64,000 nucleotides of DNA from Thermoanaerobaculia bacterium. Lineage in GTDB: Bacteria; Acidobacteriota; Thermoanaerobaculia; Gp7-AA8. The position numbers and the translations under genes were made by a program. Shown one piece after another: positions 4,330-62,522 of the stretch. The DNA is taken from the NCBI GenBank assembly GCA_036522835.1, contig DATDFB010000034.1:4383-68382 (forward strand), written 5' to 3'. The stretch's first letter is position 1; every line of letters begins with the position of its first letter. Under the pieces are notes generated by a model that worked only from the letters and a program-made list of their open reading frames with translations, had not been told where the DNA came from and searched no databases.

Positions 4330-4585
4330 TTCAGCAAACTCGCTGAAAACGGAAGAGCGCACGCTTGCAATGTAAGCAAACTCGCTGAAAATCGAAGAGC
4401 GCACGCTTGCAACGGAAGAGCGCACGCTTGCATCCGAAGCATTTTTCCTTGAGATCGAAGCGTGCGTCCTTCGATTTTCAGCGAACTCGCTTAACTTGGA
4501 AGCGTGCGCTCTTCCATTTTCAGCGAGTTTGCTGACGTTGCAAGCGGCCGTTCTTCGGTTGCAAGCGTCCGTTCTTCGGTTGCAT
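4330..4585. repeat. complex array of a ~37-bp unit (GCAAACTCGCTGAAAA-CGGAAGAGCGCACGCTTGCAA) in direct and inverted orientation
   Basis: There are 2.5 direct copies at 4330-4435, 2 inverted copies at 4450-4540, and 2 diverged inverted partial copies (GTTGCAAGCG-CCGTTCTTCG x2) at 4545-4585. The array lies in the 3'-3' intergenic region. Confidence 0.8.
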
Positions 4586-11405: not shown

Positions 11406-11674
11406 CGGAGCCGCCTCGGGCGGCTCGAACTGCACGCACGCGGCACGTCGGCTGCAGTTCGCTCCCGCCAATTCGTGTTGGTCGCGGCAGCCGCCGCGCC
11501 GCTTTCGGGAGGCCGGCATGGTGGGCGGTTTTTGCAGCTTAGAGTGAGCGCGTTAGGCCGGCGCGCGACTTGCTCGAGAATCACGATGCACTAAGCACGA
11601 CACTCGCAAGCCTCGCGGACGCCGAAAATCCAGTTCATCGCCAGCGTCACGTTCCGCCCTCGCAGCGCCGCAGG

Positions 11675-11847
11675 GTGAGGAACGGGCCGCGACCAGCAAG
11701 ACGCGCCGCCGCCGAAGCGACAGTTTGGGCACTCGATCTGTGGGACTTGCATAATTGCACGCTCAGCGCAAAGTCGAGTGCCCAAACAGTCGCTTCACCG
11801 TCCGCCCGGCGCACGCTCGTCGCGGCCCGTTCCTCACGCGCCGCCCA
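11675..11847. repeat. nested long imperfect palindrome (~173 bp) inside a ~690-bp ORF-free region; possible structured RNA or recombination site
   Basis: Outer arms GTGAGGAACGGGCCGCGAC (11675-11693) and GTCGCGGCCCGTTCCTCAC (11829-11847). Inner arms CGACAGTTTGGGCACTCGA (11718-11736) and TCGAGTGCCCAAACAGTCG (11774-11792). Centre TTGCATAATTGCA. Confidence 0.8.
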
Positions 11848-14145: not shown

Positions 14146-14339
14146 AAGCGCTGGCAATGGCTCCTACCGCGCGCCTGACCTACAAGGATCTCATCCGAGC
14201 AGAGCAGGCGTGAAGCGGCAGGGACGGGAAAACGTTTCCCGGGAGCGCAATCTGGTTCACTTTGACGGCGACTTCTGGAACGCCCAGCCGCTTGCGCTCC
14301 GCCAAGGTCATATGTACAGTCATCAGGTACAGGTGAGAC

Positions 14340-14621
14340 ATGGCCACAGAAACAACCTACACGCATGCTCGTGCAAACCTCAAAGCTCTTCTCGACGAGG
14401 CGTCAGACGGCCGCGACATCGTCATCATCCATCGCCGTGGCGCCGACGATGTTGCACTCATCGCGGTAGACGAACTGCGAAGCCTCATCGAGACGGCACA
14501 CCTACTTCGGTCTCCGAAGAACGCCGAGCGGCTGCTTCGTGCCTTAGCTCGTGCAAAGCGACGTAAGGGCCGTGCCCAGACGATGGCTAAACTGCGTCGC
14601 GATGTCGGTCTGGACGAGTAG
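14340..14621 (+). CDS. yefM: YefM/Phd-family type II antitoxin
   Basis: MATETTYTHARANLKALLDEASDGRDIVIIHRRGADDVALIAVDELRSLIETAHLLRSPKNAERL. Confidence 0.75.
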   Translation: MATETTYTHARANLKALLDEASDGRDIVIIHRRGADDVALIAVDELRSLIETAHLLRSPKNAERLLRALARAKRRKGRAQTMAKLRRDVGLDE

Positions 14622-14629
14622 CGCCGGCC

Positions 14630-14902
14630 GTGCCCAAGCAGAAAAGTCGTGCCGCTGTTTTCCAGGACGAGTTTCGTGAGGATCTTCGCTATTGGGTTCA
14701 GAACGATCGCAAGATTGCGCTCCGTGTCATCGACCTTGTCGAGGCCGTCATGCGCGACCCATTTATAGGAATCGGCAAGCCAGAGCCGCTGAAGTATCTC
14801 GCGTCGGGTGCGTGGTCTCGCCGTCTCACGCAGGAACATCGAATCGTATATGTCGTGTCAGACGACCGCATCGATTTTCTCCAAGCCAAATATCACTACT
14901 AA
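14630..14902 (+). CDS. yoeB: YoeB/Txe-family type II toxin (mRNA interferase)
   Basis: ..GIGKPEPLKYLASGAWSRRLTQEHRIVYVVSDDRIDFLQAKYHY matches the YoeB C-terminal signature. Lies immediately downstream of yefM. Confidence 0.75.
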   Translation: MPKQKSRAAVFQDEFREDLRYWVQNDRKIALRVIDLVEAVMRDPFIGIGKPEPLKYLASGAWSRRLTQEHRIVYVVSDDRIDFLQAKYHY

Positions 14903-17278: not shown

Positions 17279-18601
17279 ATGGAACAAAAGCGCTCGCGTA
17301 AACGGCTGTTTTGGCTGGTCGGTCTGGCTGTCCTCGTCGTCATCGCCCTCGTGGCGATGGTGGCGTCGAAAAAGAAGGACAAACCGATCTTCGTCACCAC
17401 CGACAAGGCCTTCCGCAAGAACGTTACGCAGCTGGTGACGGCGACGGGGAAGATCCAGCCCGAGGTCGAGGTGAAGATCGCCCCGGAGGTCTCGGGGGAG
17501 ATCGTCGATCTTCCGGTCAAGGAAGGGGACCTCATCCACCGCGGGCAGCTCTTGCTGCGCATCAAGCCCGACGCCTACAAGGCGCAAGTGGAGTCGCAGC
17601 AGGCGGCGCTGAGCGGGGCGCGCTCGGCGAGCGTGCGGAACCGCGCGGAGCTGGCGAAGGCGGAGCAGGACTACAAGCGCGCCCAGCAGCTCTTCAACGC
17701 CAAGCTTCTGCCGGAGTCGGACCGCAACACGGCCCAGACGCAGTACGACATGGCCAAGGCCGCGCTCGAGTCCTCGCTGTTCGAGATCCAGCGCGCCGAG
17801 GGGGCGCTGCGGCAGATCACCGACGCGCTGTCGAAGACGACGATCTATTCACCGGCCGACGGCACGATCAGCTCGCTCACCAGCCGCCTGGGGGAGCGCG
17901 TGGTCGGCACGAGCCAGTTCGCCGGCACGGAGATCATGCGCATCGCCAATCTCGACAACATGGAAGCGGTGGTGAACGTCAACGAGAACGACATCCCCAA
18001 CGTTCACCTCGGACAGACCGTGCGCATCAGCGTCGATGCCTATCCCGACAAGGTCATTCAGGGCGTCGTGCGCGAGATCGCCAGCACGGCCACGACGAAG
18101 AACGCCGGCAGCCAGGAAGAGGTGACGAACTTCGAGGTGAAGATCCGCATCCCCGACCGCACGCTGCGCCTCCGCCCCGGCATGAGCACGACGGCGGACA
18201 TCGAGACGGCCACGGTGCAAAACGCGGTGGTGGTGCCGATCCAGGCCGTGACCGCGCGCATCGCCGGTAGCAAGCAGTCGCCCGAGGAGCGGGAGAGGAA
18301 CACGGCGCAGCAGGCCGCGCGCGACGGCGGCGACAACAAGGCCGACGTCACCAACCAGACCCAGGAAAAGCAGAAGCAGCGCGAGCTGCGCGAGCAGTTG
18401 CAGCGCGTCGTGTTCGTGAAGAACGGCGACAAGGTCCGCCAGCAGAAAGTCGAGACCGGGATCGCCGACTCGACCTACATCGAGATCAAGAACGGCATCA
18501 AGCCGGGCGACGAGGTCGTCTCCGGCTCGTACACGGCGATCTCGCGGCGGCTGAAGGACGGGGCGAAGGTGGCGATCGAGAAGCCGGGGAAGGGGTCGTA
18601 G
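17279..18601 (+). CDS. efflux transporter periplasmic adaptor subunit (HlyD/MFP family)
   Basis: N-terminal TM anchor (LFWLVGLAVLVVIALVAMVA), coiled-coil region, then beta-barrel/lipoyl motifs (VSGEIVDLPVKEGDLIHRGQLLLRI; ...FVKNGDKVRQQKVETG). Confidence 0.8.
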   Translation: MEQKRSRKRLFWLVGLAVLVVIALVAMVASKKKDKPIFVTTDKAFRKNVTQLVTATGKIQPEVEVKIAPEVSGEIVDLPVKEGDLIHRGQLLLRIKPDAYKAQVESQQAALSGARSASVRNRAELAKAEQDYKRAQQLFNAKLLPESDRNTAQTQYDMAKAALESSLFEIQRAEGALRQITDALSKTTIYSPADGTISSLTSRLGERVVGTSQFAGTEIMRIANLDNMEAVVNVNENDIPNVHLGQTVRISVDAYPDKVIQGVVREIASTATTKNAGSQEEVTNFEVKIRIPDRTLRLRPGMSTTADIETATVQNAVVVPIQAVTARIAGSKQSPEERERNTAQQAARDGGDNKADVTNQTQEKQKQRELREQLQRVVFVKNGDKVRQQKVETGIADSTYIEIKNGIKPGDEVVSGSYTAISRRLKDGAKVAIEKPGKGS

Positions 18602-18696
18602 TTCTTGGTTCTTAGTTCTTGGTTCTTAGGTTCTTAGGTTCTTAAGTTCTCCAGGGGATTCAAACTAAGAACTAAGAACCTAAGAACTAAGAACCG
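18602..18696. repeat. hairpin built from tandem heptamers (unit GTTCTTAG / CTAAGAAC), AT-rich, copy H1
   Basis: TTCTTGG TTCTTAG TTCTTGG TTCTTAG GTTCTTAG GTTCTTAA ...loop... CTAAGAA CTAAGAAC CTAAGAA CTAAGAAC. Lies directly after the stop of the adaptor gene. Confidence 0.85.
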
Positions 18697-22987: not shown

Positions 22988-23632
22988 ATGAATTTCGATG
23001 AGCATCTGGCCGCGCTCGCCGCGTGCCGCCTCTGCCCGAACGTGCTCGGCGCGCCGGTCATCGGCGCCGTCGCCGGCGCGACGGTGATGCTCGTCGGGCA
23101 GGCGCCGGGACCGCGCGAGATGGAGCAGCGCCGCCCCTTCGCCTTCACCGCCGGCCGGCGCATGTTCGCCTGGTTCGAGCGCCTCGGCGTGAGCGAAGAG
23201 GAGTTCCGCGCGAGCGTGCACATGTGCGCGGTGATCCGCTGCTTTCCGGGACGCGATCCGAAGGCGGGCGGCGACCGCGTGCCGTCACCCGAGGAGATCG
23301 CAAACTGCGCCGGACACCTCGACCGCGAGATCGCGCTGCTCGCCCCGAAGCTGGTGATCGCGGTGGGGACGCTCGCGGCGGCGGCGCTGGGTGTCACCCC
23401 GAGCGTGAGCGAGGGGGCCCCTCGCTTCGCTCGGGGTGACACCAAGCTCAAGGACGTCGTCGGCCGCGTTCACCGCGTCAAGCGCGCCGGCAAGGCGTTC
23501 GACGTGGTCGTCCTACCGCATCCCTCGGGACGCTCGACGTGGACGAACAAGCCGGAGAATGCCGCCCTGCTGCAGCGGTCGCTCGAGCTGATCGGCGCGC
23601 ACGCGGCGTGGCGGAAGACGTTTCAGAAATGA
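22988..23632 (+). CDS. uracil-DNA glycosylase, family 4/5
   Basis: LCPNVLGAPVIGAVAG..MLVGQAPG..HPSGRS motifs. Carries an in-frame 55-bp palindrome at 23390-23444. Confidence 0.8.
   Translation: MNFDEHLAALAACRLCPNVLGAPVIGAVAGATVMLVGQAPGPREMEQRRPFAFTAGRRMFAWFERLGVSEEEFRASVHMCAVIRCFPGRDPKAGGDRVPSPEEIANCAGHLDREIALLAPKLVIAVGTLAAAALGVTPSVSEGAPRFARGDTKLKDVVGRVHRVKRAGKAFDVVVLPHPSGRSTWTNKPENAALLQRSLELIGAHAAWRKTFQK
23390..23444. repeat. 55-bp nested palindrome inside the UDG CDS
   Basis: GGTGTCACCCCGAGCG-TGAGCGAGGGG-GCC-CCCTCGCTTC-GCTCGGGGTGACACC. Encodes LGVTPSVSEGAPRFARGDT in-frame. Confidence 0.8.
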
Positions 23633-25326: not shown

Positions 25327-25403
25327 GAGTCCTGAGTCCTGGTCCTGGGTCCTGAGTGTTGCGGCAACTCAGGACTCAGGACGCAGGACCCAGGACCCAG
25401 GAC
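25327..25403. repeat. hairpin built from tandem heptamers (unit GAGTCCT / GGTCCTG), copy H2, in the divergent promoter region
   Basis: GAGTCCT GAGTCCT GGTCCT GGGTCCT GAGT - GTTGCGGCAAC - ACTCAGG ACTCAGG ACGCAGG ACCCAGG ACCCAGG. Confidence 0.85.
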
Positions 25404-25424
25404 TTGTACAATGCCGCGTCCTTC

Positions 25425-27701: not shown

Positions 27702-28421
27702 ATGAGAAAGAGTTTGATGACGGCAATGGCGCTCGCGCTCGTCTGCGCGAGCGCCTCCGCGTCGATGGAGGTGCTGGTCGAGGGCGCCCCCGTCCGCGAA
27801 TACCACCACAACGGCACGGTCTACATCGAGGCGCTGCGCGGACGCGACTTCTCGATCCGCCTGTCGAATCCGACACCGTACCGCGTCGCGGTGGCGCTGT
27901 CGGTCGACGGCCTGAATACGATCGACGCGCGCCACACCAGCGCCTGGAGCGCGCGCAAGTGGGTGCTCGACCCGTGGGAGTCGACGGTGATCTCCGGCTG
28001 GCAGGTCGACATGGGCACGGCGCGCCGCTTTTTCTTCACCGGCGAGCGCAACTCCTACGGCGCCGCGCTCGGCCAGACGCAGAACCTCGGCGTGATCGAA
28101 GCGGTGTTCTACCGCGAGCGGCCGCGCCGCCGCGACGCGAAGGTGGCGCCGCCGTCCCCGCCGGCGAGCGGGTCGGCCGCCGCGCCGAGGGAGATGGAGT
28201 CGAACAAGGGGATGGCGGACGAGTACGCGGCCACCGGCATGGGCGAGCGCGACCGCCACGAAGTCGAAGCCGTCGACATCGATCTCGACTCGACGCCCAT
28301 CGCCTCCGCGCGCGTCCGCTACGAGTTCCGCCCGCAGCTCGTGAGGTTGGGCGTGCTGCTGGAGCCGTCGCCGCTCGAGCGCCGGGAGGGGGCGCGGGGG
28401 TTCTGTCCGGAGCCGCGGTGA
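27702..28421 (+). CDS. secreted hypothetical protein
   Basis: CAGGAGG RBS; signal peptide MRKSLMTAMALALVCASASA. Confidence 0.5.
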   Translation: MRKSLMTAMALALVCASASASMEVLVEGAPVREYHHNGTVYIEALRGRDFSIRLSNPTPYRVAVALSVDGLNTIDARHTSAWSARKWVLDPWESTVISGWQVDMGTARRFFFTGERNSYGAALGQTQNLGVIEAVFYRERPRRRDAKVAPPSPPASGSAAAPREMESNKGMADEYAATGMGERDRHEVEAVDIDLDSTPIASARVRYEFRPQLVRLGVLLEPSPLERREGARGFCPEPR

Positions 28422-28423
28422 TG

Positions 28424-28480
28424 TGGAGTGCGCCGGCCATGCCGGCGCTGTGAGTGCGGCGGCATGGCCGCCGCACTCCA
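28424..28480. repeat. 57-bp nested palindromic element TGGAGTGCGSCGGCCATGCCGSCGCT-GTGAG-AGCGGCGGCATGGCCGCCGCACTCCA (family A, copy 1)
   Basis: Perfect 26-bp arms, each itself hairpin-forming around CCATGG/GCATGC. Full copies also at 46982-47038, 51860-51916 and 62465-62521. Half-copies at 34945-34958, 41435-41463 and 55734-55759. Confidence 0.9.
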
Positions 28481-28626
28481 TAATGCCGCGTCTGCGGCTC
28501 CGAGCTTCGCGCGATTCAGACGAATCTGCCGTTCGAGACCTCCGAGCGCACGATCGTGATCGTCAAAGACGCGTGGAGGAGATGCGCGCGCGCGCTCGAA
28601 ATAGTTCCCTTCGCCGCGTAAATGGC

Positions 28627-28658
28627 GTGGAGGACAGGCAAGAGTGCCTGTCCTCCAC
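28627..28658. repeat. GGACAGGC-core hairpin, copy 3 (14-bp perfect stem)
   Basis: GTGGAGGACAGGCA-AGAG-TGCCTGTCCTCCAC. Confidence 0.85.
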
Positions 28659-28664
28659 TGAGCG

Positions 28665-37504: not shown

Positions 37505-40500
37505 TTGCTTGGGACCCAACGTGATCCAGATCACGAAATCGACCGCAGAAGCCGTTACCATGCGGTCACAGGTCCCTGCGTGCCCATTCACACGCTATCC
37601 GCCGGGTTAGCGCGCGATGCTCTTGCACTCGCGACGCTCTTCACCGCCGTGGCCATTTTTCTCCTCGGCGGTGCCGTCATTGCGCGCGGCCGCGCCTCGC
37701 TCCTCTCCAGCCTTTTTTTTCTCATGACTTTCGGCGCGAGCGGGTGGCTGGCCTTCGACGCCGCCACGTTCGTCGCGGGCGACGCCGCCCTCGCTGTAGC
37801 CTTCGCCCGCGCCGCTCTCGCCTCGGCCTGCGTCGTCCCGGCGGCGGTCTTTCACTTCGCCGCCGTCTACACGAAGCGCTCGAGGCGGCTGGCCGGCGTC
37901 GTGGCCGCCTGCTGGATCTTCTGCGCGGCCGTCGCCGTGGCCGCGCTCTTCACGCCGCTGATCATTCCCGGCGTCCACCAATACTCGTGGGGCTTTTACG
38001 GTCGCACGTCCGTCGCCGACCTCGTCTGGATCGCGCTCTTCGTGGCCATGCTCGTCGCCAGCATCCGCCTCATCGCGCGCCTCGCGAAGGAAGACGATCC
38101 GCTGACGCGCGCCGGCGCGCGGGCCATCGTCGTGGCCTGCATCGCCGGCCTCTTCGCCGGGGTCAACCTCCTGCCGGCGTTCGGCGTCGGCATCGTGCCG
38201 CTCGGTTTTCTGGCGCTGCTCGCTTTCGTCGGCCTCTCGGCGAACGCCATCTGGCGCTATGGTCTCGTGCAGCTCACGCCGCAGTTCGCCGCGGAGCAGG
38301 TGCTGGCGACGATGAAGGGCGCCGTCCTCGTCGTCGACCTCGAGGCGAAGATCCGCGTGGCCAACGACGCCGCCTGCTCGATGCTCGGCTACAAGGAAAA
38401 CGATCTCGTCGGGCAACCGCTGAAGAAGATCTTCGACGAGGCCGACAAGATCAGCACCGGAAAGCTGCTGCACAGCATGGGCATCCTGGAGCGGAGCATG
38501 GGATGGCGCGCCGCGGACGGGACGCGCATCGAGGTGGCGGCGACGTCGTCGTTCATCCGCGACCGCGAGGGGACGCCGGTGGGCGTCGTCTACGTGGCCA
38601 CCGATGTCACCGAGCGCCGCCGCGCCGAGCAGGCCATGCGCGAGAGCGAGCACCGCTACCGCACGCTCTTCGACGGCAATCCGCTGCCGATGTGGATCTA
38701 CGACTTCGAGACGCTGCAATTCCTGGCCGTCAACGAGGCGGCCACGCGCACGTACGGCTACTCGAAGAGCGAGTTCCTGCGTATGGGCATCATGGACATT
38801 CGTCCGGCCGAGGATCTGCCGCGGATGCATGCGCGGCTCGCGGAGCTGCGCGAGCGGACGGCGCCGATGCTGTTCCGGCACCGCAAGAAAGACGGGACGA
38901 TTTTCTGGGTCGAGGTCACGTCGTACGAGTTCGTGACCGGCGGACGTCGCGCGCGGCTGGTGATCTCGGTCGACGTCACCGAGCGCCAGCGCGCCGAGCA
39001 GCTCGTGCGCGAGAGCGAGGAGCGCTACCGGAGTCTCGTCGAGCTGTCGCCCGACGCGATCATGCTCCACGCCGACCGCCGCTTCATTTTTCTCAACCAG
39101 GCCGCCGTCGAGCTCCTCGGCGCGAACAGCGCGGACGATCTGATCGGCACGTCGATCATCGACCGCGTCCATCCCGACTCGCGCAACGTCGTGGCCAACC
39201 GCCTGCGCACGCTCGACGAAGGGCACGACGTGCCGATGGTGGAGGAGAAGTTCCTCCGCCTCGACGGCAGCGTGGTGGAGGTCGAGGTGGCGGCGATCTC
39301 CTTCGTCTTCAACGGCCGCCCGGCCGTGCAGGTCGTGGCGCGCGATATCTCGCAGCGCAAGCAGATCGAAGAGCGCTATCGACTGCTCTTCGAGCGCAAC
39401 CTGGCCGGCGTGTTCCGCACCAGCATCGACGGGCGCATCCTCGACTGCAACGACGCCCTGGCGCGCATCTTCGGCTACCGCAACAAGGAAGAGCTGCTGG
39501 CGCGGTCGGCGCCCGACGTGTACTTCGATCTGCAGGACCGCGAGAACGTGCTGAACGAGCTGCGCGAGCACGGGTCGCTGACGAACGTCGAGACGCGCAT
39601 GCGCCGCGCCGACGGCCGCGAGCTGTGGGTGCTGGAGAACGTGACGCTGAGCGAGTCGCGCGGCGAGATGGAAGGGACGATCATCGACATCACCGAGCGC
39701 AAGACGGCGCAGGAACAGATCGAGTATCAGGCCTTCCACGACGTGCTCACCGGGCTGCCGAACCGGCGGCTCTTCCGCGACCGCATCGGCGTGGCCCTGG
39801 CGCACGCGCGGCGGCAGCGCAGCGGCATCGCCGTGATGTTCCTCGACCTCGATCAGTTCAAGCTGGTGAACGACACGCTCGGGCACACGGTGGGCGACGC
39901 GCTGCTGCAGGCCATCGCCGGCCGCCTGGTCGGCTGCGTGCGCGCCGAGGACACGGTGGCGCGCATGGGCGGCGACGAGTTCACCATTCTCGTGTCGAAC
40001 ACGACCGACCGCCGCGCCGCCGGCATCGTCGCCCAGAAGGTGCTGGAGACGGTGGCGCATCCGGCGGTCGTGGACGGACACGAGCTCTTCGTCACGACCT
40101 CGCTCGGCATCTCGATGTTCCCCGACGACGGCACCGACGCGGAGACGCTGCTCAAGAACGCCGACCGGGCCATGTACCGCGCCAAGGAAGCGGGGCGCAA
40201 CAATTTCCAGTACTCGACGACCGACGCGTTCGACACGGCCGTGGGGCGGCTGTCGATCGAGGCCAGCCTGCACCACGCGCTCGAGCGCGAGGAGCTGGTG
40301 GTGCATTACCAGCCGATCATCGACCTCGCTTCGCACGACATCGTCGGCGCCGAGGCGCTGGTGCGCTGGAAGCATCCCGACAACGGGCTGATGGGGCCGG
40401 ACGACTTCATCCACATCGCCGAGGAGTGCGGGCTGATCGTGCCGATGGGGGAGTGGATCCTGCGCACGGCCTGCGGGCAGATGAGGGAGTGGCACGACGC

Positions 40501-41029
40501 CGGGCACGAGGGGCTGCGCATCGCCGTGAACCTCTCGCCGCGGCAGTTCCAGCAGCGCGAGCTGCCGGCCATGATCGAGCGCGTGCTGCGCGACACCGGC
40601 CTGGCGGCGGAGCTGCTCGACATCGAGATCACCGAGTCGGCGGCGATGCAGAACGCCGAGCAGTCGCTGGCGATCATGCGCAAGTTGAAGGAGATGGGGG
40701 TGCGGATCTCGATCGACGACTTCGGTACCGGCTATTCGTCGCTGTCGTACCTGAAGCGGTTTCCCATCGACACGGTGAAGATCGATCAGAACTTCGTGCG
40801 CGACCTCGCCCAGTCGGCGAACGACGCCGCCATCGTGACGGCGGTGATCTCCATGGCCCGCGCCCTGAAGCTCGGCGTGATCGCCGAGGGGGTGGAGACC
40901 GAGGAGCAGCTCGCGTTCCTCAGGCGCGAGCAGTGCGAGACCATCCAGGGGTTCCTCTATAGCCGGCCCGTGCCGGCGGACGAGTTCGGGGCGGCGCTGC
41001 GCAGCGCCGGCGTCGCGCCGGCGTCGTAA
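37505..41029 (+). CDS. membrane sensor PAS(x4)-GGDEF-EAL diguanylate cyclase/phosphodiesterase
   Basis: N-terminal polytopic domain; repeated PAS modules with RRRAEQ linkers; ..RMGGDEFTIL.. (GGDEF); ..EALVRW..DDFGTGYSSL.. (EAL). Start codon uncertain. Confidence 0.85.
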   Translation: MLGTQRDPDHEIDRRSRYHAVTGPCVPIHTLSAGLARDALALATLFTAVAIFLLGGAVIARGRASLLSSLFFLMTFGASGWLAFDAATFVAGDAALAVAFARAALASACVVPAAVFHFAAVYTKRSRRLAGVVAACWIFCAAVAVAALFTPLIIPGVHQYSWGFYGRTSVADLVWIALFVAMLVASIRLIARLAKEDDPLTRAGARAIVVACIAGLFAGVNLLPAFGVGIVPLGFLALLAFVGLSANAIWRYGLVQLTPQFAAEQVLATMKGAVLVVDLEAKIRVANDAACSMLGYKENDLVGQPLKKIFDEADKISTGKLLHSMGILERSMGWRAADGTRIEVAATSSFIRDREGTPVGVVYVATDVTERRRAEQAMRESEHRYRTLFDGNPLPMWIYDFETLQFLAVNEAATRTYGYSKSEFLRMGIMDIRPAEDLPRMHARLAELRERTAPMLFRHRKKDGTIFWVEVTSYEFVTGGRRARLVISVDVTERQRAEQLVRESEERYRSLVELSPDAIMLHADRRFIFLNQAAVELLGANSADDLIGTSIIDRVHPDSRNVVANRLRTLDEGHDVPMVEEKFLRLDGSVVEVEVAAISFVFNGRPAVQVVARDISQRKQIEERYRLLFERNLAGVFRTSIDGRILDCNDALARIFGYRNKEELLARSAPDVYFDLQDRENVLNELREHGSLTNVETRMRRADGRELWVLENVTLSESRGEMEGTIIDITERKTAQEQIEYQAFHDVLTGLPNRRLFRDRIGVALAHARRQRSGIAVMFLDLDQFKLVNDTLGHTVGDALLQAIAGRLVGCVRAEDTVARMGGDEFTILVSNTTDRRAAGIVAQKVLETVAHPAVVDGHELFVTTSLGISMFPDDGTDAETLLKNADRAMYRAKEAGRNNFQYSTTDAFDTAVGRLSIEASLHHALEREELVVHYQPIIDLASHDIVGAEALVRWKHPDNGLMGPDDFIHIAEECGLIVPMGEWILRTACGQMREWHDAGHEGLRIAVNLSPRQFQQRELPAMIERVLRDTGLAAELLDIEITESAAMQNAEQSLAIMRKLKEMGVRISIDDFGTGYSSLSYLKRFPIDTVKIDQNFVRDLAQSANDAAIVTAVISMARALKLGVIAEGVETEEQLAFLRREQCETIQGFLYSRPVPADEFGAALRSAGVAPAS

Positions 41030-41079
41030 CAACGGTTCCTCGGGAGGTTCCGTCAAGGGCCAGGAGGGAACCGTGCGTG

Positions 41080-41402
41080 CCCGGCGTGGCCGCACGCGCG
41101 TCCACGATGTGCCGCAATGCGTCCCGGCGCGGCCGCACGTGCGTCCACGATGTGCCGCAATGCGTCCCGGCGTGGCCGCATGCGCGTCCACGGTGTGCCG
41201 CAATGCGTCCCGCTGTGGCCGCACGCGCGTCCACGGTGTGCCGCAATGCGTCCCGGCGCGGCCGCACGCGCGTCCACGGTGTGCCGCAATGCGTCCCGGC
41301 GTGGCCGCACGTGCGTCCACGGTGTGCCGCAATGCGTCCCGGCGTGGCCGCACGTGCGTCCGCGGTGTGCCGCAATGCGTCCCGGCGTGGCCGCACGTGC
41401 GT
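41080..41402. repeat. tandem array, 43-bp unit CCCGGCGTGGCCGCACGCGCGTCCACGATGTGCCGCAATGCGT x 7.5
   Basis: Eight phased copies with scattered SNPs (g/a, c/t). No unique spacers, so this is not a CRISPR array. Unit length is not a multiple of 3. Confidence 0.9.
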
Positions 41403-41434
41403 CGCCGTCCGGTGCCGGCGGAAGATCTCTCGTG

Positions 41435-41463
41435 TGGAGTGCGGCGGCCGCGCCGCCGCTGTC
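41435..41463. repeat. family-A palindromic element, one-arm copy
   Basis: TGGAGTGCGGCGGCCGCGCCGCCGCT. Confidence 0.7.
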
Positions 41464-44653: not shown

Positions 44654-45712
44654 ATGAGCATTCGCAAGCGCGGACGCGGGGCGCGGGCGAAGAGCGCGCG
44701 CGGCGAGGAGTGGGAGGAGCTGCACGATGACGCGGCGCGCGCGCGCAGACGGGCTCGGCCGTCGGACCAGATCGACGCGCTGCGGCATCTCTTCGACGAT
44801 CCCGGCCTGGCCGGCGTCGACCCCGCCGGCGCGGCGATCGTGATCAACGTTGCCAGCGGACGGTGCCGCGTCTTCCGCGACACGAGGGAGATCGACGCCG
44901 TCGTGCCGCCGGAGATCGCCGCGCGGCAGAAGAGCGCGCTCGCCGTCGGCGACCGCGTGCTCCTCGACGAAGAGCTGCGTCTGGCCGCGATTCTGCCGCG
45001 GCACAGCGTGCTCTCGCGCCCCGACCCGCTGAACCCGCACGTGCAGCGATTGATCGCGGCGAATATCGACGTCGTGGCCAACGTGGTGTCGATGAAGGCG
45101 CCGCCGCTGCGGCCGCGGCTCATCGACCGGTTCCTGATCGCCATCCAGCGCGGCGGCGCGGCGCCGATGATCGTGGTGAACAAGATCGATCTCGACCGCG
45201 ACCTGACTCTGTTGCGCGACTACGAAGACCTCGGCATTCCGGTGATTCCGTGCTCGACGAAGAGCGGCGAAGGCCTCGACGAGCTGCGTGCGGCGCTCGC
45301 CGGGAAGACGTCGGCGCTCGTCGGCCACAGCGGCGTCGGCAAATCGTCGATCCTGAATGCGCTCGACGAGCGCCTGCAGATCGCCACGGGCGATCTCCAC
45401 CGCCGCGGCACCGGCCGCCACACCACGACCTCCTCCACGCTTCACGACCTCGGCGGCGGCACGTTCCTCATCGACACCCCCGGCATCCGCGAGCTCGGCC
45501 TCTGGGAGCTGACGCCGCGTGCGCTGCGGGAGTCGTTCCCCGAGTTCGACGAGGCGGCGGAGCTCTGCCGCTTCAACGACTGCACGCATCTGCACGAGCC
45601 GGCCTGCGAGGTGAAGGAGCGCGTGGAGCGCGGAGAGCTCAGCCGGGCACGGTACGAGACGTACGTGCGGTTGGCGGAGGAGGTGACGGGGCGGGTGACG
45701 GGTGACAGGTAA
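44654..45712 (+). CDS. rsgA: ribosome small-subunit-dependent GTPase A
   Basis: Circularly permuted GTPase motifs: ..VVNKIDL.. then ..LVGHSGVGKSS...DTPG..; C-terminal zinc-finger Cys/His (CRFNDCTHLHEPAC). Confidence 0.9.
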   Translation: MSIRKRGRGARAKSARGEEWEELHDDAARARRRARPSDQIDALRHLFDDPGLAGVDPAGAAIVINVASGRCRVFRDTREIDAVVPPEIAARQKSALAVGDRVLLDEELRLAAILPRHSVLSRPDPLNPHVQRLIAANIDVVANVVSMKAPPLRPRLIDRFLIAIQRGGAAPMIVVNKIDLDRDLTLLRDYEDLGIPVIPCSTKSGEGLDELRAALAGKTSALVGHSGVGKSSILNALDERLQIATGDLHRRGTGRHTTTSSTLHDLGGGTFLIDTPGIRELGLWELTPRALRESFPEFDEAAELCRFNDCTHLHEPACEVKERVERGELSRARYETYVRLAEEVTGRVTGDR

Positions 45713-45767
45713 CAGGTGACAGGTGATTACCCGTGACCTGTGACCCGTCACCTGTGACCCGTCACCT
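45682..45767. repeat. hairpin built from tandem heptamers (unit GGTGACA / GGTGACG), copy H3; overlaps the last 9 codons of rsgA
   Basis: GGTGACG GGTGACA GGTAACA GGTGACA GGTGA-TTAC-CCGTGAC CTGTGAC CCGTCAC CTGTGAC CCGTCACC. Encodes the ..VTGRVTGDR tail of RsgA. Confidence 0.85.
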
Positions 45768-46980
45768 CACGGAAGCAGCCGCGTCGCGCTCGTGCTCTCC
45801 ACGTAAATCAACGCATCCCATCCCGCGACGAGATCGCCGTTGATCGTGAACGTCGGCCGCGCGGCGAAGTTCGCGTTCGTCGCGGCGATCCGCCACTGCT
45901 GTTTGCCGTTGAGCCAGCGCGGGGCGTTGCGAAGCGGAACGATCATCAGCGGCATCGCGCCGCGGGCGAGCGTTTGCGTGACGTCGGTGGCGGGCGGCGG
46001 GACGATGTCGACGGCGGCGACGCCGGTGGGGAGGAGGATGCTGACGCGGCCGCTGTAGGTCGCGGAGGCGAACGCGACGTAGCCGGCGCCGAGCTCCTTG
46101 GCGAGAAGCTCGCCGGCGGAGACGATCACGGGGCCGTTGAAGTCGTAGTCGATGCGGCCGAAGTGGACCATGTGGCCGATGACGACCGTCTTCGCCCGCG
46201 CGGCGTTCCAGAGGATGTTCTCCGCGAGGTGAGCGTCGCGGCTCAGGCGCGCCGTCTCGAAATCTTCTTCCGCCTGCTCGGCGCGGCGCACGGCGTGCAG
46301 CGCGTGTTCGTCAGGGTGGGCTTCGACGTCCGCGCGCACAGCGAGCACATTCTCGCGGCACTGCGCGTGGTACTCGGGGGGATAGGCGTAATACGAGTTG
46401 TTCGTCCAGTAGCTGTCGAGGCAGTCGTAGCGCGCGGCGGCGCGGTCGGCGGCGGCGGGATCGACGCCGCGGAGGTAGTCGACGACGGCGGCGGTTGCGC
46501 CGTTCGGGACGGTCGAGTCGATGGAGGCGATGCTCACGGCCGGATTGCCGGCGGCGTTCCAGGCCCGGATCCACTGCACGAGCTCGAGCGCTTCCTCGAC
46601 GTGCCAGAAGAAGTACGCCTCGACCTGCAGCGCGGCGGCGGGATCGCCTTCGCCGGTCTTCACGTATTTGTCGAGCGCTTCGAGGTCGTACGGACCTTCG
46701 AGCGCGACCGTGCGGAAGCCGGCGTGCTCGATGAGGTACTTGGCCAGGCGGTTGTGCAGCGTGAAGAACTCGTGCGTGCCGTGCGTGGCGTCGCCGAGCG
46801 CGACGACGCGAGCGTCGGCGACGAGAGGGAGGACAGGCGCGAGATCGCTGTCGTCCGGCGTCGGCTCGGTCGTGCGCAGGGCGATGGCGTGCTGCGGCAG
46901 CCACGTCTGCGGCGGCGGGTCGCCCGGCGGCACCATGGCGCGGTGCCGGATGGCGGCGGCGAGGAGGATTCCGAGGAGCA
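45767..46980 (-). CDS. erythromycin-esterase-family (EreA-like) protein
   Basis: ..VVALGDATHGTHEFF..RLAKYLIEHAGFRTVALE.. characteristic of the erythromycin esterase family. Start MLLGILLAAA chosen just downstream of the repeat-derived N-terminal extension. Confidence 0.7.
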
Positions 46981-46981
46981 T

Positions 46982-47038
46982 GTGGAGTGCGCCGGCCATG
47001 CCGGCGCTGTGAGAGCGGCGGCATGGCCGCCGCACTCC
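46982..47038. repeat. family-A 57-bp palindromic element, copy 2
   Basis: TGGAGTGCGCCGGCCATGCCGGCGCTGTGAGAGCGGCGGCATGGCCGCCGCACTCCA. Confidence 0.9.
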
Positions 47039-47041
47039 AGA

Positions 47042-53735: not shown

Positions 53736-53737
53736 GA

Positions 53738-53814
53738 GGTTCTTAGGTTCTTGAGTTGTTAGGTTCTTACGTTTCGCGAAACTCAAGAACTAAGAACCTA
53801 AGAACCTAACAACC
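53738..53814. repeat. hairpin built from tandem heptamers (unit GGTTCTTA / TAAGAACC), copy H4
   Basis: GGTTCTTA GGTTCTTGA GTTGTTA GGTTCTTAC-GTTTCGCGAAAC-TCAAGAAC TAAGAACC TAAGAACC TAACAACC. Same unit as H1, AT-rich. Confidence 0.85.
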
Positions 53815-55761: not shown

Positions 55762-57549
55762 ATGCTCCTCGCAATCGTCGCCGCGCTTTATATCAACGAC
55801 GCCTCCTGCACTTCCTGCCACGCGAACATCGTCCACACCTACCACGCGGTGGGGATGTCGAAGTCGTTCTACCGCCCGCGGCAGGACGACGCCATCGAGG
55901 ACTTCTCGAAGCTGCCCTTCAAGCACGCGAAGTCGGGCGACGTGATGGAGCTGCGCTGGCGCAACGGGCGGCTGATCTTCCGCCGCGTGAACGGCCGGAG
56001 CGTGTTCGAGCAGCCGGTCGACTGGATTCTCGGCTCGGGCCACCACGCGCGCACATACCTCTACCAGACGCCGAACGGCGAGCTCTATCAGCTCCCGCTC
56101 GCGTGGTACACGCAGACAAAGGAATGGGGGATGGCCCCCGGCTACGACCGGCGCGACCACGACGGCGTGCTGCGCCGCGCGCGGCACGAGTGCCTCTTTT
56201 GCCACAACGCGTATCCGGGTGACGGGTTTCAGGTGACGGGTGACAAGGTTTCTCACCCGTCACCTGTCACCCGTGACCTGTCACCTGGGAACGCGTATCC
56301 GGACGGGTCCCAGGCCACGGGTGACAAGGCTTCTCACCCGTCACCTGTCACCCGTTCCCTGTCACCCGGCTACTGGAGCAATCAAGGCCTGCCGGCGCAG
56401 CTCCCCGAGGGGATCGGCTGCCAGCGCTGCCACGGGCCGGGATCAGAACACGTGGCGCTCGCCTCGGCCGGCGCCGGCAACGCGCAACTGCGCGCGGCAA
56501 TCGTGAATCCGGCGCACCTCGACGCGCAGCGCCGCAACGACGTCTGCTACGAGTGCCACATGCAGCCGTCCGTGGCCATCCCCGGCCTGCGCCGCTTCGG
56601 GCGCGACATTTACTCGTATCGGCCAGGGCAGCCGCTGCACGACTACCTCGCGCGCGTCGACATCGTCGACGGCGAGATCCCGCGGCCGGAGCGCTTCGAG
56701 ATCAACCATCATCCGTATCGGCTCGAGCAGAGCCGCTGCTTCCGCGAGAGCGGAACGCTGTCGTGTCTCACGTGCCACGACCCGCATCGCAAGACGTCGA
56801 ATGTCTCGCCGGTCTGCCTGCAGTGCCACGCCGAGGCGCATCGCGCGAGCGAGAACTGTGCAACCTGTCACATGCCGAAACGCCGCACGCAGGACGTCGT
56901 TCACGTCGTGATGACGGACCATCGCATCGGCGTCTATCGCGACCTTCCGAAGCTCCTCTCGCCGCGCGAAGAGCGAGACCCGGTCATCGACGACATCGAG
57001 GTCGACGATCCGCTCTACCGCGCCGTCGCCGGCGTGCGCGCCGGCTCGACGTCTGCTGCGCGGCAGCTCGAGACGTTGCTGGCGGACACGCCGTCAAAGG
57101 AGGTCGAGCCGTATCTCGATCTCGCCGCCGCGCAGTTGCGGCAGAAACGCTACGACGCCGTCGAGGCGACGGCGCGCCTCATTCTCGCCCGGGCGCCCGA
57201 CCACCCGCTGGCGCTAGAGTGGCTCGGCCTCGCGCGCGCGAACCTCGGCGCGCGCGACGAAGGGATCGAGCTGCTGCGCAAGGCCGCGGCGCTCGATCCG
57301 CAGCGCGTCGAGACGCTCTACAACCTCGGACTGCAGCTCGCCGCGCGCGGCAGCCGCGACGAGGCCATCGCAGTGTTCGCGCGTGCCGTGGCCGGCCGTC
57401 CGAACTTCGTCCTGGCCTGGTTCCACCTCGGCAATGCCCGCGCCGCCAAGGGCGATCGCGACGGCGCCGTCGCCGCCTGGCGGCGCGCGCTCGACATCGA
57501 TCCGCGTTTCGCCCGCGCCGCCGCCGCTCTCAGTAATCCGCCACCGTGA
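55762..57549 (+). CDS. multiheme c-type cytochrome (7 CxxCH) with C-terminal TPR repeats
   Basis: CTSCH, CLFCH, CQRCH, CYECH, CLTCH, CLQCH, CATCH. TPR-like C-terminal third. Contains an in-frame duplicated heptamer-hairpin element at 56218-56368. Confidence 0.75.
   Translation: MLLAIVAALYINDASCTSCHANIVHTYHAVGMSKSFYRPRQDDAIEDFSKLPFKHAKSGDVMELRWRNGRLIFRRVNGRSVFEQPVDWILGSGHHARTYLYQTPNGELYQLPLAWYTQTKEWGMAPGYDRRDHDGVLRRARHECLFCHNAYPGDGFQVTGDKVSHPSPVTRDLSPGNAYPDGSQATGDKASHPSPVTRSLSPGYWSNQGLPAQLPEGIGCQRCHGPGSEHVALASAGAGNAQLRAAIVNPAHLDAQRRNDVCYECHMQPSVAIPGLRRFGRDIYSYRPGQPLHDYLARVDIVDGEIPRPERFEINHHPYRLEQSRCFRESGTLSCLTCHDPHRKTSNVSPVCLQCHAEAHRASENCATCHMPKRRTQDVVHVVMTDHRIGVYRDLPKLLSPREERDPVIDDIEVDDPLYRAVAGVRAGSTSAARQLETLLADTPSKEVEPYLDLAAAQLRQKRYDAVEATARLILARAPDHPLALEWLGLARANLGARDEGIELLRKAAALDPQRVETLYNLGLQLAARGSRDEAIAVFARAVAGRPNFVLAWFHLGNARAAKGDRDGAVAAWRRALDIDPRFARAAAALSNPPP
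56218..56368. repeat. two tandem copies of a GGTGACN-heptamer hairpin element (H5), inserted in-frame in the cytochrome c gene, each preceded by AACGCGTATCCGG
   Basis: 13-bp direct repeat AACGCGTATCCGG at 56207-56219 and 56290-56302. The element encodes ..GDGFQVTGDKVSHPSPVTRDLSPG NAYPDGSQATGDKASHPSPVTRSLSPG... Confidence 0.8.
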
Positions 57550-62462: not shown

Positions 62463-62464
62463 TA

Positions 62465-62521
62465 TGGAGTGCGGCGGCCATGCCGCCGCTGTGAGAGCGG
62501 CGGCATGGCCGCCGCACTCCA
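62465..62521. repeat. family-A 57-bp palindromic element, copy 4
   Basis: TGGAGTGCGGCGGCCATGCCGCCGCTGTGAGAGCGGCGGCATGGCCGCCGCACTCCA, between parC and lspA. Confidence 0.9.
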
Positions 62522-62522
62522 C

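What the first reader, a model, noticed from the sequence alone, without database searches (positions are those of the whole stretch)
18602..18696. Hairpins whose arms are tandem heptamers with locus-specific unit sequence (5 loci)
Five loci share one architecture: an arm of 4-7 tandem 7-8-nt units, a short palindromic loop, then the reverse-complement arm. The unit differs between loci.
- 18602-18696: GTTCTTAG units, loop ..GGGGATTCAAA.., 3' of the efflux-adaptor gene.
- 25327-25403: GAGTCCT/GGTCCTG units, loop GTTGCGGCAAC, in a divergent promoter.
- 45682-45767: GGTGACA/GGTGACG units, loop TTAC, forming the last codons of rsgA.
- 53738-53814: GGTTCTTA units, loop GTTTCGCGAAAC, 3' of the S8 protease gene.
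- 56218-56368: GGTGACN units, duplicated in-frame inside a cytochrome c gene.

Two of them are ~40% GC in a ~70% GC genome. Conserved architecture with a variable unit is not the usual MITE picture of one consensus sequence. It suggests a generating mechanism such as slippage on a hairpin template, or a family recognised by structure rather than sequence.
Basis: seen in the sequence. Interest (0 to 1): 0.6.

Follow-up and report, generated by a model that had tools for sequence, protein, structure and literature searches.

The report
Hairpin repeats built from tandem heptamers
The five loci are real members of an abundant class of small palindromic repeats in soil Acidobacteria (Thermoanaerobaculia). 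Their arms are runs of 7-9-base units, they resemble heptamer repeat pairs already described in Xanthomonas, and their function is still unknown.

Summary
All five hairpins exist as described. They fold far better than shuffles (z -5.8 to -8.8). A paired-array detector finds 5 in the window and 0 in 100 simulated windows.

They are not five locus-specific inventions. The window holds three unit families (GTTCTTAG twice, GGTGACN twice, GAGTCCT once). Across 782 kb of related Thermoanaerobaculia loci I found 42 such hairpins, against 1 in 452 kb of gammaproteobacterial controls. Of 95 tandem arrays there, 69 have period 7.

- **Symmetry:** the arms are usually mirror images, variant units included.
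- **Polarity:** the 5' arm is C-poor in 40 of 41 hairpins.
- **Position:** many hairpins abut a stop codon.
- **Growth in place:** one site in a cytochrome gene shows the series no array, one arm, full hairpin, duplicated hairpin.
- **Copying:** two copies on one contig are 92% identical, loop included, with unrelated flanks.

Best reading: slippage-built heptamer arrays are turned into palindromes by inverted duplication and then copied between sites. A role as RNA 3'-end structures is inferred only.

The closest precedent is the convergent GGGAATC pairs of Xanthomonas, so this is a new variant of a known kind.

Caveat: the window is probably chimeric or recombinant exactly at locus 1.

The parts
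18599..18695 (.). Hairpin 1, GTTCTTAG family. 5' arm 18599-18650 (about 7 units; its first TAG is the stop codon of the upstream ORF), centre 18651-18662, 3' arm 18663-18695 (about 4.5 units).
   Evidence: (-50.2 kcal/mol, z -7.4). The inner arm, loop, 3' arm and right flank are identical in L203 and L204. The left flank differs in other assemblies.
17279..18601 (+). HlyD-family membrane-fusion protein gene whose TAG stop abuts hairpin 1. In another assembly the identical protein is followed by a different GTTCTTAG hairpin and two macB-type permease genes.
25327..25404 (.). Hairpin 2, GAGTCCT/GGTCCTG family. 5' arm 25327-25357, near-palindromic centre GTTGCGGCAAC, 3' arm 25367-25404. It fills 78 of the 122 nt between the lyase start (25302, - strand) and the glmS ATG (25425).
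   Evidence: (-62.6 kcal/mol, z -8.1). Identical in two independent assemblies.
45682..45767 (.). Hairpin 3, GGTGACN family. It contains the last roughly 10 codons and the TAA stop (45710-45712) of rsgA. Its 3' edge abuts the stop of the convergent erythromycin-esterase-like gene (45767-47035, - strand).
   Evidence: (-67.7 kcal/mol, z -8.8). Identical in L001 and L002.
53737..53814 (.). Hairpin 4, GGTTCTTA family. It starts 2 nt after the TGA stop of the S8 peptidase gene and ends 4 nt before a TATCAT box that lies 12 nt upstream of the gyrB ATG (53836). Its centre GTTTCGCGAAAC is palindromic.
   Evidence: (-35 kcal/mol, z -5.8). An orthologous hairpin of the same family, with different unit counts and loop, is in L004. 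L003 has a 1-kb ORF there instead.
56216..56287 (+). Hairpin 5a, GGTGACN family, in frame inside the multihaem cytochrome/TPR gene (55762-57549). The one unit that would place TGA in frame reads GGTTTCA instead.
   Evidence: (-55.1 kcal/mol, z -6.9).
56297..56368 (+). Hairpin 5b, the second copy made by an 81-nt (27-codon) tandem duplication spanning 56206-56366. Its 5' arm is degraded. Its 3' arm is identical to that of the single hairpins in L208 and L209.
   Evidence: period 81, 2.0 copies, 87% matches; z -3.1. The whole insert is 154 nt where L003 has 16 nt, a net gain of 138 nt or 46 codons.

Best explanation
The five loci belong to a class of small palindromic simple-sequence repeats that is abundant in this soil Thermoanaerobaculia (Acidobacteriota) lineage. 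Each consists of two inverted arrays of 3-8 tandem 7-9-nt units around a short, fast-changing centre.

**How they arise**
1. Heptamer arrays form and change unit number by replication slippage. The lineage shows a strong excess of period-7 arrays; slippage itself is inferred.
2. A single array, G-rich on the sense strand, becomes a palindrome by inverted duplication through fold-back or template switching. The state series and the mirrored variant units are shown; the mechanism is inferred.
3. Arrays or whole hairpins are copied to other sites, giving a few unit families per genome and at least 20 in the lineage. The copies are shown; the copying route is unknown.
4. Hairpins are lost again or duplicated.

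**Where they persist**
They survive where they do little harm: immediately after stop codons, in short spacers and, rarely, in frame inside a tolerant protein loop.

**What they might do**
When transcribed they would form very stable stem-loops. A role as 3'-end, terminator-like or mRNA-protecting structures, as proposed for REP elements, is plausible but purely inferred. The fixed polarity (C-poor 5' arm on both strands) is shown and only partly explained by the stop codons the 5' arm carries.
For: **Lineage-wide class**
- 42 hairpins with tandem 7-9-nt arms in 782 kb of Thermoanaerobaculia gyrB loci, against 1 in 452 kb of gammaproteobacterial gyrB loci.
- Among arrays with >=3 copies and score >=40, period 7 occurs 69 times, period 8 11 times, period 9 7 times and every other period <=3 times. 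The controls have no period-7 array.
- They also occur on multi-megabase contigs (L007 on a 5.9-Mb chromosome, L040 on a 5.0-Mb contig), so they are not short-read artefacts.

**True palindromes**
- Variant units are mirrored between the arms in many hairpins, for example L024, L008, L031, L042 and L029.

**Growth in place**
- After the CHNAY motif of the cytochrome gene, relatives have 18 nt with no array (L003), 36 nt with four heptamers (L210, L211, L004) or a 75-nt hairpin (L208, L209). In the hairpin the variant unit AGGGAAC is mirrored as GTTCCCT. The window has 156 nt.
- These states are patchy on the protein tree, which indicates repeated gain and loss.

**Copying between sites**
- L161a and L161b are 74/80 identical, loop included, with unrelated flanks.
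- The two hairpins flanking gyrB in L007 share the same order of variant units.
- GTTCTTA-family hairpins occur on about 13 high-GC metagenome contigs.

**Turnover at fixed slots**
- The S8 peptidase-gyrB, gyrB-downstream and gyrB-gyrA spacers carry different unit families in different species.
- Filled and empty gyrB 5' UTRs both exist.

**Placement**
- 13 of 15 GTTCTTA-family hairpins have a gene stop ending within 4 nt of their outer edge.
- 12 of 42 periodic hairpins lie within 5 nt of a stop, against 7 of 96 ordinary hairpins.
- By rough gene calls only 2 of about 36 sit between divergent genes.

**Polarity**
- The 5' arm has G>C in 40 of 41 hairpins, p = 2e-12.

**Selection on locus 5**
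- The insert is in frame and its in-frame TGA has been removed.
Against: - No transcript or 3'-end data exist, so any function is unproven.
- No T-run follows any 3' arm, so these are not canonical intrinsic terminators.
- Arm mismatches show no excess of G.U-compatible changes on the sense strand (24 against 22) and transversions are as common. This gives no sign of RNA-level selection.
- Some copies are visibly decaying (L007a -33.8 kcal/mol against its orthologue L029a -67.8).
- The direction of the state series (gain against loss of the 3' arm) is inferred from a rough NJ tree only.
- The route by which copies reach new sites is unknown. No target-site duplication was found and no transposase was seen in the window.
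- Slippage alone explains neither the period of 7 nt nor the polarity.
Confidence: 0.7

Rival explanations
1. They are non-autonomous mobile elements of the MITE or REPIN type. Whole hairpins would be moved by a trans-acting transposase (for example a RAYT-like Y1 enzyme) that recognises the arm sequence, with one enzyme or specificity per unit family. The internal heptamer periodicity would then be a set of reiterated binding sites.
For: - Discrete whole-element copies with sharp boundaries and unrelated flanks exist (L161a/b).
- Several families occur per genome, and the same families recur across species at different sites.
- Presence/absence polymorphism is seen at fixed sites.
Against: - No target-site duplication at three filled/empty or copy/copy comparisons.
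- No terminal motif is shared between families.
- No transposase gene is in the window.
- One-arm arrays and the stepwise series at a single site are not expected from cut- or copy-and-paste of a complete element.
- Loops differ greatly between copies that share the same arms.
Confidence: 0.15
2. They are selected RNA elements: bidirectional transcription terminators or 3'-end mRNA stabilisers, plus translation stop pads. Selection would maintain the long stem, and the periodic arms would be only the cheapest way to build and lengthen a stem.
For: - They sit at gene 3' ends, often touching the stop codon, and are depleted between divergent genes.
- The predicted stems are very stable.
- The 5' arm closes all three reading frames in 16 of 41 hairpins, against 5 of 41 for the 3' arms and 11.3 +/- 2.1 for a unit-permutation null.
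- Ordinary hairpins show the same polarity faintly.
Against: - No U-tract follows the stem.
- There is no G.U bias towards the sense strand.
- Some hairpins lie in a 5' UTR (gyrB of L007 and L029), in a divergent promoter region (locus 2) or inside a coding sequence (locus 5).
- Close relatives lack them at the same site without any replacement (L003).
- Some copies are decayed.
Confidence: 0.3
3. The arrays are reiterated binding sites for a sequence-specific nucleic-acid-binding protein. This was proposed for TAACTGA heptamers upstream of start codons in Beggiatoaceae. Alternatively they could act through G-quadruplexes, as proposed for GGGAATC in Xanthomonas.
For: - Units are regularly spaced, and there are literature precedents (PMC4679880, PMC4692102).
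- Some arrays are G-run rich (GGGGGAC in L210 and L211; GGGGTGT in L015).
Against: - At least 20 unrelated unit sequences occur in one lineage and 3 in one 64-kb window, which would need many different binders.
- Most units have no G-run (GTTCTTA, GAATGTT, AATTGAA, GATTTTG), so quadruplexes cannot be general.
- Pairing of the two arms would compete with binding of a single strand.
Confidence: 0.07
4. The hairpins, or their periodicity, are chance palindromes or assembly artefacts.
For: - Assemblies break or join differently inside the arrays at locus 1. The Logan contig L204 starts inside the array, and the window's left flank differs from L203 and L205.
Against: - Loci 2-5 are identical in independent assemblies from ENA, JGI and Logan.
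- Hairpins are present on 5-6-Mb contigs.
- 100 simulated windows give 0 hits.
- The period distribution is sharply peaked at 7.
Confidence: 0.02

Closest known systems
Convergent inverted pairs of GGGAATC heptamer arrays in Xanthomonas, and GGGGA(C/T)T arrays in Nostoc (Rehm et al. 2015, PMC4692102)
   Same: - Tandem heptamers that are mostly intergenic, close to stop codons on the sense strand and rare between divergent genes.
- 70-75 pairs per genome in convergent orientation that can form stem-loops, which I read as the G-rich strand lying in the 5' arm.
- Position conserved but length and sequence variable between related species.
- Function unknown.
   Different: - Xanthomonas has essentially one G-tract unit, interpreted through G-quadruplexes.
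- Here there are at least 20 unrelated units, most without G-runs, with 3 families in 64 kb.
- Whole hairpins, loop included, occur as dispersed copies.
- The host is a different phylum.
Heptamer long simple-sequence repeats in bacteria (Mrazek et al. 2007, as summarised in PMC4692102 and PMC4679880); cyanobacterial STRR heptamers; tandem heptamers hosting small dispersed repeats in Nostoc (Elhai et al. 2008, recalled from memory because the paper is not held); (GATAGRA)n in Chloroflexus (PMC6749651)
   Same: - A strong genome-specific excess of period-7 arrays in intergenic DNA.
- Polymerase slippage proposed as the source.
   Different: - Those reports concern mainly direct arrays.
- The mirror-image pairing, the polarity rule and the stepwise array-to-hairpin series are not part of those descriptions, as far as I could read.
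TAACTGA intergenic heptamer direct repeats of Beggiatoaceae, cyanobacteria and Bacteroidetes (MacGregor 2015, PMC4679880)
   Same: - A heptamer unit carrying stop codons, so that arrays close all three frames and can overlap gene ends by only a few nucleotides.
- Arrays packed tightly against neighbouring genes.
   Different: - TAACTGA arrays are direct (one inverted case in 170 sets), consist of a single unit and lie mostly just upstream of start codons.
REP / BIME / REPIN elements
   Same: - Small, abundant, imperfectly palindromic intergenic repeats at gene 3' ends.
- Different families occupy orthologous spacers in related species.
- Proposed roles in mRNA 3'-end protection.
   Different: - REP arms are not internally periodic.
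- The GTAG/CGTC tag and an associated RAYT gene were not found or could not be tested.
- The window has a separate, ordinary REP-like family (GGAGTGCGGCGGCCATGCCGCCGCT...).
Rickettsia palindromic elements (recalled from general knowledge)
   Same: - A palindromic repeat inserted in frame into a protein-coding gene and tolerated, as at locus 5.
   Different: - No sequence relationship.
- RPEs are not built from tandem units.
- Locus 5 seems to have grown in place from a four-unit array.

Membership tests
Inverted pairs of heptamer long-SSR arrays (Xanthomonas type, PMC4692102) | Arms are head-to-tail arrays of about 7-nt units. | tested here: met
   TRF on the window. Lag census 17x7, 2x8, 2x9. 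Period census 69 arrays of period 7.
Inverted pairs of heptamer long-SSR arrays (Xanthomonas type, PMC4692102) | Two arrays close together in convergent orientation, with the G-rich strand in the 5' arm. | tested here: met
   5' arm has G>C in 40 of 41 hairpins. [quoted passage not shown]
Inverted pairs of heptamer long-SSR arrays (Xanthomonas type, PMC4692102) | Intergenic, near stop codons on the sense strand, rare between divergent genes. | tested here: met
   Contexts: 26 co-directional, 8 convergent, 2 divergent, 1 inside a gene, by rough gene calls. Stop-codon distances.
Inverted pairs of heptamer long-SSR arrays (Xanthomonas type, PMC4692102) | The unit is a G-tract motif (GGGNATC) able to form a G-quadruplex. 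| tested here: not met
   Units GTTCTTAG, GAGTCCT, GGTGACN in the window and GAATGTT, AATTGAA, GATTTTG and others in relatives lack G3 runs.
REP / REPIN | A conserved GTAG or CGTC tetranucleotide at one end of the palindrome. | tested here: not met
   GTAG occurs at the 5' edge of only some GTTCTTA copies, where it comes from a G followed by the TAG stop. It is absent in the other families.
REP / REPIN | An associated RAYT (Y1 transposase) gene in the genome. | not testable with these tools
   Only 64 kb plus roughly 20-kb loci are available. No transposase domain was found in the ORFs scanned.
MITE | Terminal inverted repeats flanked by a target-site duplication. | tested here: not met
   No direct repeat at the edges in L161a/b, locus 5 against L003 or the gyrB 5' UTR filled against empty.
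MITE | A related autonomous insertion sequence with the same ends. | not tested
   This needs whole genomes.
Intrinsic (Rho-independent) terminator | A short G+C-rich stem followed by a U-tract. | tested here: not met
   The 15 nt after each 3' arm contain no T-run. Stems are about 30 bp, and two are only 38-40% GC.
Contingency-locus SSR (phase variation) | Unit number varies between closely related strains and switches a gene on or off. | tested here: not met
   Loci 2-5 are identical in strains or assemblies at >=99.9% identity. The only difference (+1 unit in L203) is confounded by the flank change. Most arrays lie after stop codons.
Any Rfam RNA family | A match at the family's gathering score. 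| tested here: not met
   0 matches in the whole window.

The most novel reading that the evidence does not exclude
Heptamer-array palindromes with an obligatory C-poor 5' arm could be a general, so far unnamed class of bacterial genome element shared by Acidobacteria, Xanthomonas and perhaps cyanobacteria and Chloroflexi. A dedicated process would make them. One candidate is fold-back copying of a nascent G-rich array at gene ends, coupled to transcription termination or fork stalling. Another is a trans-acting factor that templates the units. The polarity would then reflect a real functional constraint, such as keeping C-rich nascent RNA away from Rho until it is paired.
Probability: 0.12. 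Interest if true: 0.75.

Novelty: new variant of a known kind. Interest (0 to 1): 0.5.

Why it matters
- **Heptamer excess.** The excess of heptamer repeats in some bacterial genomes has been known since 2007 without a mechanism or a function. This lineage offers an unusually rich natural experiment: dozens of unit families, a strict polarity rule and intermediate states at a single site. These make the questions of how arrays become palindromes, and why the 5' arm is C-poor, directly testable by genome census and by reporter or Term-seq experiments.
- **G-quadruplex explanation.** The data show that the explanation proposed for Xanthomonas cannot be general, because most units here lack G-runs.
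- **Assembly quality.** These repeats break or mis-join metagenome assemblies. The window itself is probably chimeric or recombinant at 18.6 kb, which matters for MAG quality in soil Acidobacteria.

Tried and rejected
- **Ungapped periodicity scan.** It missed most loci because 7- and 8-nt units are mixed.
- **5-mer cluster scan.** It was swamped by CG-only words. I replaced both scans by TRF arrays paired by local alignment.
- **Independent synthesis of the two arms (for example telomere-like addition at a break).** Rejected because variant units are mirrored between the arms.
- **Loop as the original target sequence.** Rejected for locus 5, because L003 has unrelated sequence there.
- **Target-site duplications.** None found.
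- **G.U bias test for RNA-level selection.** Null result, 24 against 22.
- **Palindrome extension into unique flanks as a signature of fold-back copying.** Suggestive in L161a (GGGGGATT / AATCCCCC). It is ambiguous for the CGCAGAT family and the cytochrome site, because the flank bases could be partial units, so I do not rely on it.
- **Rfam.** No hit.
- **Pfam on the low-GC stretch at 10-17 kb.** Nothing relevant.
- **Elhai et al. 2008.** Could not be read and is cited from memory only.
- **First look-up of the HlyD protein.** It failed because the longest ORF start was wrong. The 17279 start worked.
- **Literature search for the phenomenon in Acidobacteria.** Found nothing.

Full report
**1.

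- Folded as single strands they give one long stem-loop each: -50.2, -62.6, -67.7, -35.0 and -55.1 kcal/mol, with z-scores of -5.8 to -8.8 against 200 dinucleotide shuffles. The second copy inside locus 5 is degraded (z -3.1).
- Tandem Repeats Finder shows that every period-7/8 array scoring 37 or more in the 64-kb window is an arm of one of these hairpins.
- A detector that pairs neighbouring TRF arrays by reverse-complement alignment finds 5 in the window and none in 100 third-order Markov simulations of it.
- Loci 1 and 4 are 38-40% GC in a 66.8% GC window.

**2. Gene context**

Pfam scans and translations confirm the contexts.
- Locus 1 begins at the TAG stop of an HlyD-family gene.
- Locus 2 fills 78 of the 122 nt between a beta-eliminating lyase gene (- strand) and glmS (+ strand).
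- Locus 3 provides the last codons (…VTGRVTGDR) and the TAA stop of rsgA. Its other edge touches the stop of a convergent esterase-like gene.
- Locus 4 starts 2 nt after the S8 peptidase stop and ends just before a TATCAT box 12 nt upstream of the gyrB ATG.
- Locus 5 lies in frame in a multihaem cytochrome/TPR gene as an 81-nt tandem duplication.
- None is followed by a T-run, and Rfam has no match anywhere in the window.

**3. Organism and scale**

The window comes from a soil-metagenome Thermoanaerobaculia bacterium (Acidobacteriota). A GyrB-based scan gave about 50 loci from related species and about 30 gammaproteobacterial loci that serve as controls.
- In 782 kb of the former I found 42 hairpins with tandem 7-9-nt arms, plus roughly as many unpaired arrays. 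In 452 kb of the latter I found 1.
- Among arrays with at least 3 copies and score at least 40, the Thermoanaerobaculia loci have 69 of period 7, 11 of period 8, 7 of period 9 and at most 3 of any other period. The controls have none of period 7.
- Among hairpins whose arms are periodic without gaps, the best lag is 7 in 17 cases, 8 in 2 and 9 in 2, and never another value.
- The class is therefore real, lineage-wide and heptamer-dominated.

**4. Units define families, not loci**

- The window has three families: GTTCTTAG (loci 1 and 4), GGTGACN (loci 3 and 5) and GAGTCCT (locus 2).
- Relatives carry many others, including GAATGTT, CACAGAG, CGCAGATGA, ACGCGGAG, GTTGTCA, GACTGAG, TAGTGGT, GATTTTG, AATTGAA and ATAGGAC. 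The same family recurs in several species at non-orthologous sites.
- A metagenome scan for GGTTCTTAGGTTCTT found about 13 further high-GC contigs with GTTCTTA hairpins.
- On one contig, two copies 1.7 kb apart are 74/80 identical, loop included. Their flanks are unrelated, and each abuts a different gene's stop codon.
- The two GAATGTT hairpins flanking gyrB in L007 share the same order of variant units.
- Within a family, then, these are dispersed repeats with a consensus.

**5. Anatomy and rules**

- *Mirror symmetry.* Variant units are usually mirrored between the two arms (L024, L008, L031, L042, L029). The hairpins are true palindromes rather than two independently made arrays. Copy numbers in the two arms can differ (L016, locus 1).
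- *Polarity.* Counting G in the 5' arm plus C in the 3' arm against the reverse, 40 of 41 distinct hairpins have a G-rich, C-poor 5' arm (946 against 299; p = 2e-12). A and T show no polarity. Because the element is an inverted repeat, this property is the same on both strands. Ordinary hairpins in the same loci show it only faintly (55 against 35).
- *Stop codons.* The 5' arm closes all three reading frames in 16 of 41 hairpins, against 5 of 41 for the 3' arms and 11.3 +/- 2.1 for a unit-permutation null. This explains part of the polarity at most, since 12 of the 5' arms have no stop at all.
- *Placement.* 13 of 15 GTTCTTA hairpins have a gene stop ending within 4 nt of an outer edge. Over all families, 12 of 42 lie within 5 nt of a stop, against 7 of 96 ordinary hairpins. 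With my rough gene calls only 2 lie between divergent genes.

**6. Turnover and growth in place**

- The nearest species (L003, about 90% nucleotide identity) lacks locus 5, with 16 nt in place of 154 nt (a net 46 codons). It has a 1-kb ORF where locus 4 sits.
- L004 has an orthologous GTTCTTA hairpin at locus 4, with different unit counts and a different loop.
- The gyrB-gyrA spacer consists almost entirely of a hairpin in five species, each with a different unit (GAATGCA, GAATTGG, GACTGAG, GATTTTG, AATTGAA).
- A GAATGTT hairpin sits in the gyrB 5' UTR of L007 and L029 and is absent from six relatives. No target duplication is visible.
- The most informative evidence is a single site after the CHNAY haem motif of the cytochrome gene:
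  - Most homologues have a 10-residue segment (PALAENTRDG).
  - Some have 6-8 residues with no array (L003).
  - Three have 36 nt made of four heptamers (GGGGGAC-type; L210, L211, L004).
  - Two have a 75-nt hairpin whose 3' arm mirrors the 5' arm, including the variant AGGGAAC/GTTCCCT (L208, L209).
  - The window has 156 nt, the hairpin plus an 81-nt duplication.
- On a rough NJ tree these states are patchy, which indicates repeated gain and loss.
- In the window, the one unit that would put TGA in frame reads GGTTTCA. That is what selection on an inserted array would produce.

**7. A caveat about the window itself**

- The identical amidohydrolase downstream of locus 1 is found on another assembly (L203). 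There it has the same loop, 3' arm and right flank (99.87% identity over 4.4 kb), but a different gene (DUF4097 family) to the left, whose TAG also abuts the array.
- The identical HlyD protein is found on a JGI contig (L205). There it is followed by a different, more symmetrical GTTCTTAG hairpin (loop TAAAAA) and two macB-type permease genes, the expected operon partners.
- The window therefore equals L205-left plus L203-right, joined inside a 49-nt stretch of array shared by both.
- A Logan contig starts inside the same array.
- The window is probably a chimeric assembly, or a genuine recombinant, at 18.6 kb. The hairpin core itself is supported.
- Loci 2-5 have the same flanks and unit numbers in independent assemblies.

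**8. What it most likely is**

- The evidence fits a life cycle. Heptamer arrays arise and change by slippage, which is inferred from the period excess; the polymerase-footprint idea of Mrazek et al. is reported in PMC4692102 and PMC4679880.
- A sense-strand G-rich array is then converted to a palindrome by inverted duplication. The states and the mirroring are shown; the mechanism is inferred.
- Arrays or hairpins are copied to other sites. The copies are shown; the route is unknown.
- They are later lost, decay or duplicate.
- They persist where they are harmless.
- A function as RNA 3'-end structures is plausible from position and stability but untested. The null G.U test (24 against 22), the decayed copies and the clean absences in close relatives argue that many copies are neutral passengers.

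**9. Comparison with what is known**

- The closest precedent is Rehm et al. 2015 (PMC4692102). GGGAATC heptamer arrays in Xanthomonas include 70-75 convergent inverted pairs per genome. They have the same positional biases and length variation between species, and no known function. The unit there is a single G-tract motif interpreted through G-quadruplexes, which most units here cannot form.
- MacGregor 2015 (PMC4679880) described TAACTGA direct heptamer arrays that close all three frames and hug gene ends.
- Heptamer satellites are also noted in Chloroflexus and Burkholderia (PMC6749651).
- Cyanobacterial STRR heptamers and the small dispersed repeats embedded in tandem heptamers (Elhai 2008) are recalled from memory only, because that paper is not held.
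- REP/REPIN and MITE membership tests fail or cannot be done (no tag, no target duplication, no transposase seen). The intrinsic-terminator definition is not met.
- I found nothing on this in Acidobacteria.

**10. Verdict**

The finding is a real, statistically solid repeat class. The picture of a unit unique to each locus is not. The class is a new, unusually diversified variant of a known but unexplained kind. The polarity rule and the array-to-hairpin series are the parts most worth following up. Interest 0.5.

Noticed in passing
window 4331-4584: A 250-nt palindrome whose arms are tandem 21/42-nt units (AACGGAAGAGCGCACGCTTGC...), between two co-directional genes. It has the same 'tandem units in inverted arms' architecture at three to six times the unit length.
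   Followed up: partly
window 41074-41403: A tandem array of a 43-nt unit, 7.7 copies at 94% identity, immediately after the 1174-aa ORF 37505-41029. It has no spacers, so it is not CRISPR-like.
   Followed up: no
window 28403-28507, 46978-47044, 51855-51921, 62460-62526; partial copies near 41435 and 55735: An ordinary REP-like hairpin family (GGAGTGCGGCGGCCATGCCGCCGCT, 5 nt, reverse complement) at gene ends. The copy at about 46980-47044 is absent from the 90%-identical relative L003.
   Followed up: partly
window 49794-49866, 23385-23448, 28622-28663, 11672-11840: Further strong non-periodic hairpins. One is a nearly perfect 29-bp stem that is missing in L003. Another is a 169-nt hairpin in a 57-58% GC stretch (10-14 kb) whose ORFs have no Pfam hits. 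The lineage has about 1 long hairpin per 5 kb, against 1 per 18 kb in the gammaproteobacterial controls.
   Followed up: no
window about 18600-18650 (junction): The window matches L205 to the left and L203 to the right of a 49-nt shared array. Neither of those assemblies has the window's gene order, so this is a probable assembly chimera or a strain-level recombination at the repeat.
   Followed up: yes
L006-L029 and others, about 60 nt upstream of gyrB; absent in window, L003 and L004: A conserved gyrB leader: a TAGAAT box followed by CCCGCGCGGG..GATGCGCGGAGCGGG, invariant across many species. This is a candidate cis-regulatory RNA or DNA element. The window's group instead has a TATCAT box about 12 nt before the ATG.
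   Followed up: no
L016 1597-1770: A 174-nt hairpin whose arms carry three different heptamer blocks in series (GAATGTT, GAATGC[TA], GAAGTTC...). The block order is the same in both arms but the copy numbers differ, a snapshot of unit turnover inside one element.
   Followed up: partly
L036 11894-12028; L025 10066-10494: L036 has a 135-nt unpaired TGAGTCC/TGAGTGC array (19 units) right after gyrB. L025 has an approximately 349-nt segmental duplication that carries the gyrB 3' end together with its GAATTGG hairpin.
   Followed up: no
window 14279-14900 region / L205 62-624: A PhdYeFM antitoxin and YoeB toxin gene pair lies upstream of the HlyD gene in the JGI contig that matches window 14279 onwards.
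   Followed up: no
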